From an uncultured Planctomycetaceae bacterium (lineage in GTDB: Bacteria > Planctomycetota > Phycisphaerae > Sedimentisphaerales > UBA12454), in the NCBI GenBank assembly GCA_964449435.1, contig CAYUYR010000004.1, positions 20,059 to 84,058 on the forward strand: a DNA stretch of 64,000 nucleotides, in the 5' to 3' direction. Of this stretch, positions 13,519-14,227 are shown in pieces. The notes under the pieces are model-generated. The model did not search any database. It was not told where the DNA came from and was given only the letters and a program-made list of their open reading frames with translations. Numbering within the stretch: the first letter of the stretch is position 1; each line of letters opens with the position of its first letter. The translations under genes were made by a program, and so were the position numbers.

Positions 13519-13640
13519 GGTTTTTTTCGTCTCTAATGCTTTTTTATTGCGCAACTTGCATAAAAACGCCCTTTGGCGTATAATTCGGATATTGTTTGAG
13601 ATAAAATCGTTCATTTTTAAGTTTATATTTTGAGTTTTTT

Positions 13641-14172
13641 TGTCCGGCGGGTCGGGCGGCCGCCCAGCACCTACTTTATTCAGTTTCGGATTTTGGGGAT
13701 TATGTGAATATAATTCTGTGTCTCTTTGGGGACGTATCTTTATGGACTGGTTAAAGTAGGTGCTGGGAGGAAAGTCCGGGCAGGACAGGGCGCGGTGATG
13801 GCTAACTGCCACCGTATTTGAGATTTCAGATAAAGGGAAAGTGCCACAGAAAATACACAGCCCCGCACCTACTTTGTTCAGTAACAAAGGTTTATAAAAA
13901 TCAAATAATTGGAATTGCTGATACAGCTCGATTTAACGTCTCGGACTGGGCAAAGTAGGTGTGGGGTAAAGGTGAAAAGGTGCGGTAAGAGCGCACCGCG
14001 ATTTTGGCGACAGAATCGGCAAGGCAAACCCCACCGCCTGCAAGACCAAGTATGCCGGCATGCTCTGCCCGAGCGCTAATCCGGCGGGTAGGTCGCTTGA
14101 GCCTGTCAGTAATGGCAGGCCTTAGAGAAATGGTCGCTTATTACAGAACCCGGCTTATAGACCCGGCGGACA
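13641..14172 (+). ncRNA. rnpB: RNase P RNA, type A, with extended P3 and P12
   Basis: GAGGAAAGTCC (13767-13777), AGTGCCACAGAAA, GGTGAAAAGGTGCGGTAAGAGCGCACC, ACAGAACCCGGCTTA; P1 TGTCCGGCGGGTC / GACCCGGCGGACA. Confidence 0.96.
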
Positions 14173-14227
14173 AAAAAATTGATTACTTCCTCTTATCTGC
14201 TTTTGTATATAATGGTTTGTCGCCGAG

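What the first reader, a model, noticed from the sequence alone, without database searches (positions are those of the whole stretch)
13641..14172. RNase P RNA with twin, near-identical 22-bp helices forming P3 and P12
Seen: about 532 nt, longer than typical type A RNAs. P3 5' arm CCCAGCACCTACTTTATTCAGT (13663-13684) and P12 5' arm CCCCGCACCTACTTTGTTCAGT (13861-13882) are 20/22 identical; the 3' arms (13746-13767, 13945-13966) are equally similar with compensatory changes. Each caps an unrelated ~60-nt AT-rich loop. P3 is in the catalytic domain and P12 in the specificity domain. Inference: the same element inserted twice or was homogenised; the arms can cross-pair (P3 5' with P12 3'), allowing an alternative fold or intermolecular dimer, or recombination that deletes the core.
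Basis: partly seen in the sequence, partly recalled or inferred. Interest (0 to 1): 0.75.

Follow-up and report, generated by a model that had tools for sequence, protein, structure and literature searches.

The report
Repeat hairpins forming RNase P RNA helices
This bacterium's only RNase P RNA gene is real and intact, and its two look-alike long helices are two copies of a roughly 105-base hairpin repeat that, in this group of planctomycetes, repeatedly takes the place of outer helices in RNase P RNA, 23S rRNA and riboswitches.

Summary
Window 13644-14173 (+) is a full-length type A RNase P RNA of 530 nt (271.7 bits). P3 and P12 are 105- and 106-nt hairpins with near-identical 22-nt arms and unrelated interiors.

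The twins are two members of a dispersed palindromic repeat family. Its ends read R-Y-C-CCGCACCTAYTT ... AARTAGGTGCGG-G-R-Y.

In this genome other copies form the helix 25 insertion of 23S rRNA, the P3 stem of the thiC TPP riboswitch, and two intergenic hairpins. Relatives (Phycisphaerae, Sedimentisphaerales-type MAGs) hold 0-39 copies per genome. These fill P3, P9, P12, P15-17 or P19 of rnpB in different combinations.

Each twin has a closer relative in another genome than its partner, so separate acquisition fits better than duplication. Exchange between sites is nevertheless shown in another genus.

The stems are kept as RNA helices: 12 of 17 pairs covary, and G-U outnumbers A-C 36 to 8. 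Cross-pairing of the twins is about 17 kcal/mol worse than the native hairpins.

How the element moves is unknown, and so is whether RNase III cuts it out. Precedents are Rickettsia palindromic elements in rnpB, rRNA intervening sequences, and the excised P12 expansion of T. indicus.

The parts
13644..14173 (+). rnpB: type A RNase P RNA, 530 nt. It is the only rnpB in the genome.
   Evidence: RF00010 at 271.7 bits over model 1-367. One match in G000. The rnpA gene is present.
13663..13767 (+). Hairpin repeat element (105 nt) that makes up helix P3.
   Evidence: Inverted repeat I1. Fold of -46 kcal/mol, z -7.5. Family membership. In short-P3 relatives the same flanks CCGC|...|GAGGAAAG enclose an ordinary P3.
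13663..13684 (+). P3 5' arm, CCCAGCACCTACTTTATTCAGT.
13746..13767 (+). P3 3' arm, ACTGGTTAAAGTAGGTGCTGGG.
13861..13966 (+). Hairpin repeat element (106 nt) that makes up helix P12. Relatives have only GCC-UUCG-GGC at this place.
   Evidence: Inverted repeat I2. Fold of -44 kcal/mol, z -7.6. Minimal P12 in G004, G009, G011 and G020.
13861..13882 (+). P12 5' arm, CCCCGCACCTACTTTGTTCAGT.
   Evidence: Identical 22-mer in L074, and 31/33 in L123.
13945..13966 (+). P12 3' arm, ACTGGGCAAAGTAGGTGTGGGG. It makes three G-U pairs with the 5' arm.
13813..13836 (+). P9 built from a second dispersed repeat type, GAGATTTCA-like heptamers.
13635..13653 (+). 5' strand of P1, lengthened by a T7 run that pairs with the A7 run after the gene.
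   Evidence: Inverted repeat I3, 19 nt, 95% complementary.
14160..14178 (+). 3' strand of P1 with the A7 run.
   Evidence: Inverted repeat I3.

Best explanation
The locus is the organism's single, functional type A RNase P RNA gene. Helices P3 and P12 are each formed by one copy of a non-coding palindromic repeat of about 105 nt. The repeat has a conserved basal stem of 14-16 bp (R-Y-C-CCGCACCTAYTT / AARTAGGTGCGG-G-R-Y), a semi-conserved stem extension, and a fast-diverging, AT-rich interior of roughly constant length.

Shown here. The family is dispersed in Sedimentisphaerales-type Phycisphaerae (Planctomycetota). It avoids protein-coding sequence. It is strongly over-represented at the outer hairpins of structured RNAs: rnpB P3/P9/P12/P15-17/P19, three sites in 23S rRNA, and P3 of TPP riboswitches. 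At those sites its stem stands in for the host helix or continues it in register. In those hosts it is maintained as an RNA helix.

Inferred. The two copies in this gene belong to the same subfamily but entered separately, or were swapped in by exchange through the conserved arms. They are not an intragenic duplication. They persist because P3 and P12 point away from the catalytic core, so extra length there is tolerated. The element most likely spreads at the DNA level as a small non-autonomous hairpin unit. Once a site is occupied, recombination or template switching within the shared arms replaces one cassette by another. That explains why helices in one RNA look alike and why sister species carry different variants at the same site. 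The enzyme responsible for movement is unknown.
For: - **Gene identity and function.** RF00010 matches full length. There is one rnpB per genome, and rnpA is present.
- **Other copies in this genome.** There are six clear copies of 103-107 nt.
  - One lies in the helix 25 loop of 23S rRNA.
  - One forms P3 of a TPP riboswitch upstream of thiC: TPP match of 43 bits, CUGAGA and ACCUGA boxes present, ThiC at 412 bits.
- **Copy numbers in relatives.** There are 0-39 copies per genome, with reversed-pattern controls at 0-1. Outside the order, counts fall to the level of the controls.
- **Wider scan.** It returned 122 copies, almost all in Planctomycetota/Phycisphaerae/Sedimentisphaerales MAGs.
  - 15 lie in rnpB, about 10 in 23S rRNA and about 6 in TPP riboswitches; the rest are intergenic.
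  - With the exact pattern, 8 of 229 copies in the 41 relatives lie in rnpB, which is about 0.02% of the DNA.
- **A fixed-size unit.** Arms almost always come in pairs 60-130 nt apart (138 paired, 11 solo). No long version was found in about 0.9 Mb of flanks. Pairing stops 2-3 bp outside the core, and there is no target duplication.
- **RNA-level stem.** 95.4% of cells are paired and 12 of 17 pairs show double changes, with 0 of 500 shuffles as good. In the RNA sense there are 36 G-U against 8 A-C.
- **Turnover.** Within one genus, P3 is short, type D, a 69-nt variant or a 105-nt variant. The sister genome G010 (support 99/91) has both sites filled with a different subfamily.
- **Separate origins of the twins.**
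- **Exchange between sites.** In genus g23 the beta cassette sits at P12 in two species and at P19 in a third. In G212, P3 and P19 are 96% identical, while orthologues are 72-90%.
Against: - No transposase, no target-site duplication and no autonomous partner was found, so mobility is inferred only from distribution.
- Part of the enrichment in RNA genes could reflect better survival of copies whose stems are under selection, rather than targeting. In low-copy genomes the rnpB copies are the only ones left (G017 1 of 1, G029 2 of 2).
- Precise replacement of whole helices is not explained by any known insertion mechanism.
- All genomes are MAGs, and the window's own coverage is about 4.6x.
- No RNA data exist for an organism that carries the element, so expression and processing of the extended helices were not observed.
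- The pattern searches require perfect arms, which exaggerates how well the arms appear to be conserved.
Confidence: 0.75

Rival explanations
1. Intragenic duplication or arm-limited gene conversion. One hairpin of this rnpB was copied onto the other site, or the two arms were homogenised against each other. The interiors then diverged or were never converted.
For: The subterminal motif ACTTTRTTCAGT/ACTGG..AAAGT is shared by P3 and P12 but by no other copy in this genome. The sister genome G010 has P3 and P12 near-identical throughout, while G011 has the same P3 but a minimal P12. That is a clear intragenic copy event. In G212, P3 and P19 are 96% identical, above their orthologues.
Against: The interiors of the two copies here are at random-level identity, 47%. 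The exact P12 arm and the first 33 nt occur in unrelated loci of other genomes. The P3 interior is closer to an ITS copy in another genome than to P12. The subfamily therefore exists independently of this gene.
Confidence: 0.15
2. Selected functional module. The conserved stem is a recognition site kept by selection in many RNAs. The partner could be a lineage-specific double-strand RNA-binding protein or RNase III, acting in processing, folding or turnover. On this view it is not a selfish repeat.
For: A 14-16 bp stem sequence is conserved across contexts and genera while the interiors decay. Element lengths are constant: about 69, 90 or 105 nt by lineage. In genus g23 the apical TTCAAYC motif is shared by both cassette types. 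The genome encodes RNase III. About 22% of copies are followed by a T-run, like terminators.
Against: Many close relatives and all three single-contig genomes do without it: rnpB is 338-376 nt and copy number 0. Occupied sites differ between sister species. In RNA-gene copies the arm sequence itself drifts with compensatory changes, so pairing rather than sequence is what is kept there.
Confidence: 0.2
3. Regulatory alternative fold or dimer. The P3 5' arm pairs with the P12 3' arm, within one molecule or between two, to switch RNase P off or to dimerise it.
For: The cross-complementarity is real: 82% and 77% over 22 nt.
Against: The cross pairs are 17 kcal/mol weaker than the native pairs. 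The full-length minimum-energy and centroid folds keep both local hairpins. P3 can close during transcription, before P12 exists. Other species carry one, three or four copies, or none.
Confidence: 0.03
4. Assembly or binning artefact that put the same repeat twice into rnpB.
For: Low coverage (about 4.6x), a MAG, and a repeat-containing region.
Against: An independent assembler gives one 609-nt contig across both hairpins with no differences. The two copies have different interiors. The same design recurs in many unrelated MAGs from other projects.
Confidence: 0.01

Closest known systems
Rickettsia palindromic elements (RPE) inserted in the tmRNA and RNase P (M1) RNA genes (Ogata et al. 2002, as reviewed in PMC2229807)
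   Same: It is a short palindromic, non-autonomous repeat family of one lineage, found inside an essential structured RNA gene including rnpB, and tolerated there.
   Different: RPEs are best known for in-frame insertions in protein genes. Here no copy was convincingly inside an ORF. The sequence family and host phylum are different. Here there are multiple sites per RNA, repeated replacement of whole helices, and copies in 23S rRNA and riboswitches as well.
Intervening sequences (IVS) of bacterial 23S rRNA (helices 25 and 45; Salmonella, Campylobacter, Leptospira, Coxiella), removed by RNase III
   Same: A sibling copy of the element sits in the helix 25 loop of this genome's 23S rRNA, the classical IVS site. 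It has a long perfect stem with a variable interior. The genome has RNase III.
   Different: Excision could not be tested. Classical IVSs are not known to share their stem with RNase P RNA helices or riboswitch stems. That statement about the literature rests on my own knowledge and on searches that found nothing.
P12 expansion segment of Thermodesulfatator indicus RNase P RNA, excised in vivo to give a fragmented P RNA (PMC9945441)
   Same: It is a large extra hairpin in P12 of a type A RNA that is absent from close relatives.
   Different: That case is a single species-specific segment. It was not reported as a dispersed repeat and is not also present in P3. Processing is proven there and unknown here.
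STRR heptamer repeats inside the RNase P RNA gene of heterocyst-forming cyanobacteria (Vioque 1997, cited in PMC2858038)
   Same: A genome-wide repeat family builds a peripheral helix of rnpB (title). It is the best parallel for the GAGATTTCA heptamer arrays seen here in P9, P12 and P3.
   Different: STRRs are tandem heptamers, not a long palindromic unit with conserved ends. The paper itself could not be read here.
REPIN/RAYT systems and MITEs (Correia/NEMIS, ERIC)
   Same: Units of about 100 nt with inverted ends, tens of copies, intergenic, folding as RNA hairpins. Some such elements are RNase III substrates (PMC2229807).
   Different: There is no target duplication. No Y1 transposase gene is flanked by the repeat in this genome. 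Copy number does not follow Y1_Tnp genes: G003 has 13 copies and none, and G024 has 39 copies and one weak match.

Membership tests
Bacterial RNase P RNA class A (RF00010) | Covariance-model score above the curated threshold over the full model | tested here: met
   271.7 bits against a gathering score of 100, model 1-367, not truncated.
Bacterial RNase P RNA class A (RF00010) | Conserved core: P4 strands GAGGAAAGUCCGG / ACAGAACCCGGCUUA, P10-P11, the P13/P14 region, P15 with the GGU of CGGGUAGG, and P18 | tested here: met
   All are aligned at high posterior probability. The extra length is confined to P3, P9 and P12.
Bacterial RNase P RNA class A (RF00010) | Partner protein RnpA encoded in the genome | tested here: met
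   PF00825 at 69.8 bits at G000:C1:33062-33340.
Bacterial RNase P RNA class A (RF00010) | Catalytic activity on pre-tRNA | not testable with these tools
   Needs an in vitro or complementation assay.
MITE (miniature inverted-repeat transposable element) | Terminal inverted repeats, small size, many copies | tested here: met
MITE (miniature inverted-repeat transposable element) | Target-site duplication flanking the copies | tested here: not met
   The flanks pair as a stem for 2-3 bp and are otherwise unrelated. No direct repeat was seen.
MITE (miniature inverted-repeat transposable element) | A related autonomous element with the same ends and a transposase | tested here: not met
   No long-range arm pairs in the own genome or in about 0.9 Mb of flanks. 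Whole relatives' genomes were not scanned for this.
REPIN/RAYT | A Y1 (RAYT) transposase gene flanked by the repeat, co-occurring with it | tested here: not met
   The two Y1_Tnp genes of G000 have no flanking repeat. Copy number and Y1_Tnp presence are uncorrelated.
rRNA-type intervening sequence | Extra stem-loop replacing the tip of a conserved helix of a structured RNA | tested here: met
   23S helix 25, rnpB P3 and P12, and TPP riboswitch P3.
rRNA-type intervening sequence | Post-transcriptional excision (RNase III), leaving a fragmented mature RNA | not testable with these tools
   The RNA runs that hold similar sequence contain only relatives without the element. The element itself has depth 0 there, which is uninformative.
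Rickettsia palindromic elements | Membership in the RPE sequence families of Rickettsia | not tested
   The phylum is different, and no RPE sequence was fetched for comparison. The resemblance is in behaviour only.

The most novel reading that the evidence does not exclude
The CCGCACCT hairpins would be a cassette system for the outer helices of structured RNAs, made of two linked parts. (a) They would be true intervening sequences: RNase III would cut their perfect stems of 16 bp or more. Mature RNase P RNA in these planctomycetes would then be a non-covalent assembly of three or more pieces, and 23S rRNA would also be split. (b) They would spread and be swapped between helices of rnpB, rRNA and riboswitches by a hairpin-directed mechanism with no known enzyme, for example template switching or gene conversion through the shared arms. 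That would be a bacterial counterpart of eukaryotic expansion segments, but mobile.
Probability: 0.25. Interest if true: 0.8.

Novelty: new variant of a known kind. Interest (0 to 1): 0.62.

Why it matters
RNase P RNA is a textbook case of a conserved ribozyme whose outer helices vary, yet how that variation arises is rarely visible. Here the source can be seen. At least three genome-wide repeat types are used again and again as ready-made helices, in RNase P RNA, 23S rRNA and riboswitches of one bacterial order. Clear gain, loss and swapping occur between sister species.

This gives a natural experiment on which positions of a ribozyme tolerate 70-110 extra nucleotides. It also explains why covariance models miss or under-score riboswitches in these genomes. 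Finally, it offers a candidate second case of a naturally fragmented bacterial RNase P RNA.

It also warns annotators that repeats inside essential RNA genes of MAGs need not be assembly errors.

Tried and rejected
1. **Uniqueness of the 22-mer.** With 2 or fewer mismatches the 18-mer is found only in rnpB. That first suggested a gene-private duplication. A shorter core then revealed the other copies.
2. **REPIN/RAYT idea.** Y1_Tnp genes are common in the order, but they are not flanked by the repeat and not correlated with copy number. Rejected as the mobiliser on present data.
3. **Autonomous long element with the same ends.** None was found.
4. **Insertion into pre-existing hairpin tips as the general rule.** Flank pairing falls to chance beyond 3 bp, so intergenic copies are free-standing hairpins.
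5. **RNA evidence for excision.** Three searches for RNA runs and two layings found only relatives that lack the element. Contig ends near the arm bases are explained by branching between organisms, so no conclusion can be drawn.
6. **Known RNA family for the element.** No Rfam hit on any copy at E up to 0.01-0.05.
7. **Earlier notes of this scan.** Nothing on this element. The ORF-bearing heptamer-armed IVS cassettes described there are a different thing.
8. **Strand-bias test (G-U versus A-C) on intergenic copies.** Uninformative, because their orientation is unknown. It was therefore restricted to copies inside RNA genes.
9. **Literature.** Searches found no description of this element or of Phycisphaerae rnpB insertions. 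Butler and Fuerst 2004 on planctomycete RNase P RNA is not held, so it could not be checked.

Full report
**What is there.** Rfam finds one family in the 64-kb window. It is bacterial RNase P RNA class A at 13644-14173 (+), at 271.7 bits over the full model. The core is canonical. The extra length lies in P3 (85 nt beyond the loop), P12 (about 95 nt) and a slightly long P9. The genome (G000, 1.85 Mb, 35 contigs, 94% complete) has this one rnpB, an rnpA gene and an RNase III gene. The gene lies between two minus-strand ORFs.

**The observation.**
- The 5' arms are 20/22 identical, and the 3' arms 20/24.
- The differences are compensatory within each helix.
- Each arm pair encloses 61-62 nt of unrelated, AT-rich sequence.
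- An 18-mer from the arm hits four times in the window against 0.06 expected.
- Both hairpins fold with z about -7.5.
- An independent Logan contig of run X1, a microbial-mat metagenome that is probably the source sample, spans 13545-14153 without a single difference.

The feature is therefore real, within the limit of about 4.6x coverage.

**It is a dispersed repeat, not a private feature of rnpB.** The long 18-mer is confined to rnpB. The core CCGCACCTAYTT...AARTAGGTGCGG, however, occurs as hairpins of 103-107 nt at four more places in the genome.
- C23:24126-24228 lies in the loop of helix 25 of 23S rRNA, the classical intervening-sequence site.
- C6:28727-28830, read on the minus strand, is the P3 stem of a TPP riboswitch in front of thiC. 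The sequence reads caGGGGUG[element]CUGAGAAAAUACCC..ACCUGAAC..GCGUAGGAAG. Rfam gives TPP 43 bits, below threshold because of the insert, and ThiC scores 412 bits.
- C18:33527-33630 follows an S1-domain gene and is followed by TTTTTG, like a terminator.
- C12:32827-32933 is intergenic.

A seventh, degenerate member with a 172-nt body sits in another 23S helix. At least five of about seven copies in this genome are thus tips of structured RNAs.

**Anatomy of the element.** A position-defined set of 31 copies, taken from rnpB, 23S rRNA and riboswitches rather than chosen by arm sequence, gives a 17-bp basal stem.
- 95.4% of cells are paired and 12 of 17 pairs have double changes, with 0 of 500 shuffles as good.
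- In the sense of the host RNA, wobble pairs outnumber A-C mismatches 36 to 8. The stem is therefore kept as RNA.
- In 122 copies from the public genome collection, pairing extends two bases beyond the core (96% and 93% Watson-Crick, Y-C/G-R). It then drops to chance, and there is no target duplication.
- Arms come almost only as pairs 60-130 nt apart (138 paired, 11 solo). No long, gene-carrying version was seen.
- Lengths cluster by lineage at about 69, 90 and 101-107 nt.
- Interiors are AT-rich, at 39% G+C against 47% for the loci.
- No Rfam family matches the element.

**Who has it.** Record titles of the loci found by pattern are almost all Planctomycetota, Phycisphaerae or Sedimentisphaerales MAGs. 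Some are labelled Pirellulales or Planctomycetaceae, and there are a few odd bins. Contig lengths and coordinates identify G023 and G024, of the window's own family, with two of these records. Earlier notes of this scan gave the same placement. Copy number is 0-39 per genome in the family and order. In the rest of the class it is at the level of the reversed-pattern control.

**Over-representation in structured RNAs.** Of the 122 copies, 15 are in rnpB. About 10 are in 23S rRNA, at three sites: near model position 285, helix 25, and near the 3' end. About 6 form TPP riboswitch P3. The others are intergenic in all gene orientations, and none is convincingly inside a protein gene. In the 41 relatives, 8 of 229 exact-pattern copies are in rnpB, which makes up about 0.02% of the DNA. 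That is some 200-fold over the genome and roughly 20-fold over non-coding DNA.

Part of this enrichment may be survivorship. In low-copy genomes the rnpB copies are the only ones left (G017, G029).

**rnpB as a mosaic of repeat cassettes.** Across the family, P3, P9, P12, P15-17 and the P19 position are each minimal in some species; P12 can be just GCC-UUCG-GGC. In other species each of these positions is occupied by one of three dispersed modules:
- the CCGCACCT hairpin;
- a 33-nt hairpin, CCCCCTCTGCTTCTTGCGAAGCAAGAGAGGGGG;
- arrays of GAGATTTCA-like heptamers.

rnpB length ranges from 338 to 664 nt. At P3 and P9 the module replaces the whole helix between unchanged flanks. At P12 it continues the 3-bp base.

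In this genome the heptamer type builds P9 of rnpB, the variable stem of a second TPP riboswitch, and part of a cobalamin riboswitch.

**Inserted twice, duplicated, or homogenised?** The rnpB core tree puts the window's gene next to G010 (support 99/91).
- Both genes have P3 and P12 filled, but with different subfamilies. The window has 105-nt copies with ACTTTRTTCAGT. G010 has 69-nt copies with RCTTGGTATTCTT.
- In G010 the two copies are near-identical along their whole length. G011 has the identical P3 but a minimal P12, which is a clear intragenic copy event in that lineage.
- In the window's gene the interiors are unrelated (47%), and each copy has a closer relative elsewhere. The P12 arm is 22/22 identical to a copy 12 nt after the 16S 3' end in another MAG (L074), and 31/33 to a terminator-like copy (L123). 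The first 45 nt of the P3 copy resemble the L074 copy.
- Run X1 also holds a second contig with a P3-like arm and interior joined to different flanks.

The best reading is two separate acquisitions of one subfamily.

Exchange between sites is nevertheless a property of the family. In genus g23 of another family, rnpB carries three copies (P3, P12, P19) of two interior types. The beta type sits at P12 in two species and at P19 in a third. In G212, P3 and P19 are 96% identical, while orthologues are 72-90%.

**The cross-pairing idea.** The arms can cross-pair (82% and 77%). However, the native duplexes sum to -74.0 kcal/mol against -57.1 for the crossed ones. The full-length minimum-energy and centroid folds keep both local hairpins. 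The differences between the twins are the ones that disfavour crossing. No P3-to-P12 deletion form is seen in run X1, and such a deletion would remove P4-P11 of a single-copy essential gene.

**What could not be settled.**
- *Whether the hairpins are cut out like rRNA intervening sequences.* The stems are perfect duplexes of 16 bp or more, RNase III is encoded, and a sibling sits at the classical 23S site. A P12 expansion of T. indicus RNase P RNA is known to be excised in vivo (PMC9945441). But the RNA runs that share sequence with these genes contain only relatives without the element.
- *How the element moves.* Y1 transposase genes are common in the order, but they are neither flanked by the repeat nor correlated with its copy number.

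**Comparison with what is known.** Repeats inside rnpB have precedents:
- Rickettsia palindromic elements in the tmRNA and M1 RNA genes (PMC2229807);
- STRR heptamers in cyanobacterial rnpB (reference in PMC2858038).

Long stem-loops replacing helix tips are the hallmark of 23S intervening sequences.

New here are one family serving several RNA classes, up to three or four sites in one rnpB, whole-helix replacement, swapping between sites, and a marked bias towards structured RNAs. I found no description of it. I rate it a new variant of a known kind.

Noticed in passing
window 13813-13836; G000:C3:111373-111514; G000:C21:7069 and 13403: GAGATTTCA/GATTTGA heptamer arrays are a second dispersed repeat. 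They build P9 of this rnpB, the long variable stem of a second TPP riboswitch (L207 482-655, 34 bits), and lie inside a cobalamin riboswitch (L203 508-738, 59.8 bits). In relatives they fill P3, P9, P12 or P15-17 of rnpB.
   Followed up: partly
G000:C3:72311 and G000:C6:78150; rnpB of G008, G009, G014, G018, G022-G024, G030, G036: A 33-nt hairpin, CCCCCTCTGCTTCTTGCGAAGCAAGAGAGGGGG, is a third dispersed module. It forms P3, P9 or P12 of rnpB in many relatives. An RNA contig of run X24 shows it intact in the P12 of a relative.
   Followed up: partly
L045 3248-3420 (G000:C23, 23S rRNA near model position 285): A second insertion of about 172 nt in 23S rRNA. Its stem, CCCAGCCCTATTTTG...CAAAATAGGACTGGG, is a degenerate version of the same element arms. 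Its interior is AT-rich and folds at -63.5 kcal/mol (z -6.4).
   Followed up: partly
window 13635-13653 and 14160-14178: P1 of rnpB is lengthened by a T7 run before the gene that pairs with an A7 run after it (19 nt, 95% complementary). The T-run is conserved in several relatives. It may be a precursor-processing stem or simply a longer P1.
   Followed up: no
run X1, contig of 314 nt matching window 13667-13721: A second contig in the source metagenome carries the P3-type arm plus 37 nt of its interior (2 differences, 1 gap), joined to unrelated flanking sequence at similar depth (5.8). It is a sibling copy at another locus or in a close strain, which hints at recent copying.
   Followed up: no
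L034 and L035 (rnpB of G006 and G010), between GGUGAAAAGGUG and CACCGCG: An 80-81 nt insertion in the P13/P14 loop region that is not of the CCGCACCT family. It is present in RNA contigs of groundwater metatranscriptomes (X24 record 14, 163 nt aligned, 2 differences), so that expansion is retained in RNA.
   Followed up: no
G022 and G023, many loci: A high-copy subfamily, CCGCACCTTCTAAATATTCA..., has a 3' part that often contains AATAATATGAAAC.. followed by AAAGAAGGTGCGG. This looks as if the hairpin overlaps a start codon and the first codons of a gene family, so it could be a translational hairpin. Not examined.
   Followed up: no
G023:C39:70206-70395: A second, partial rnpB match (model 20-222, 179 bits) in one relative, in addition to its full-length gene. 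It may be a pseudogene or a contig end.
   Followed up: no
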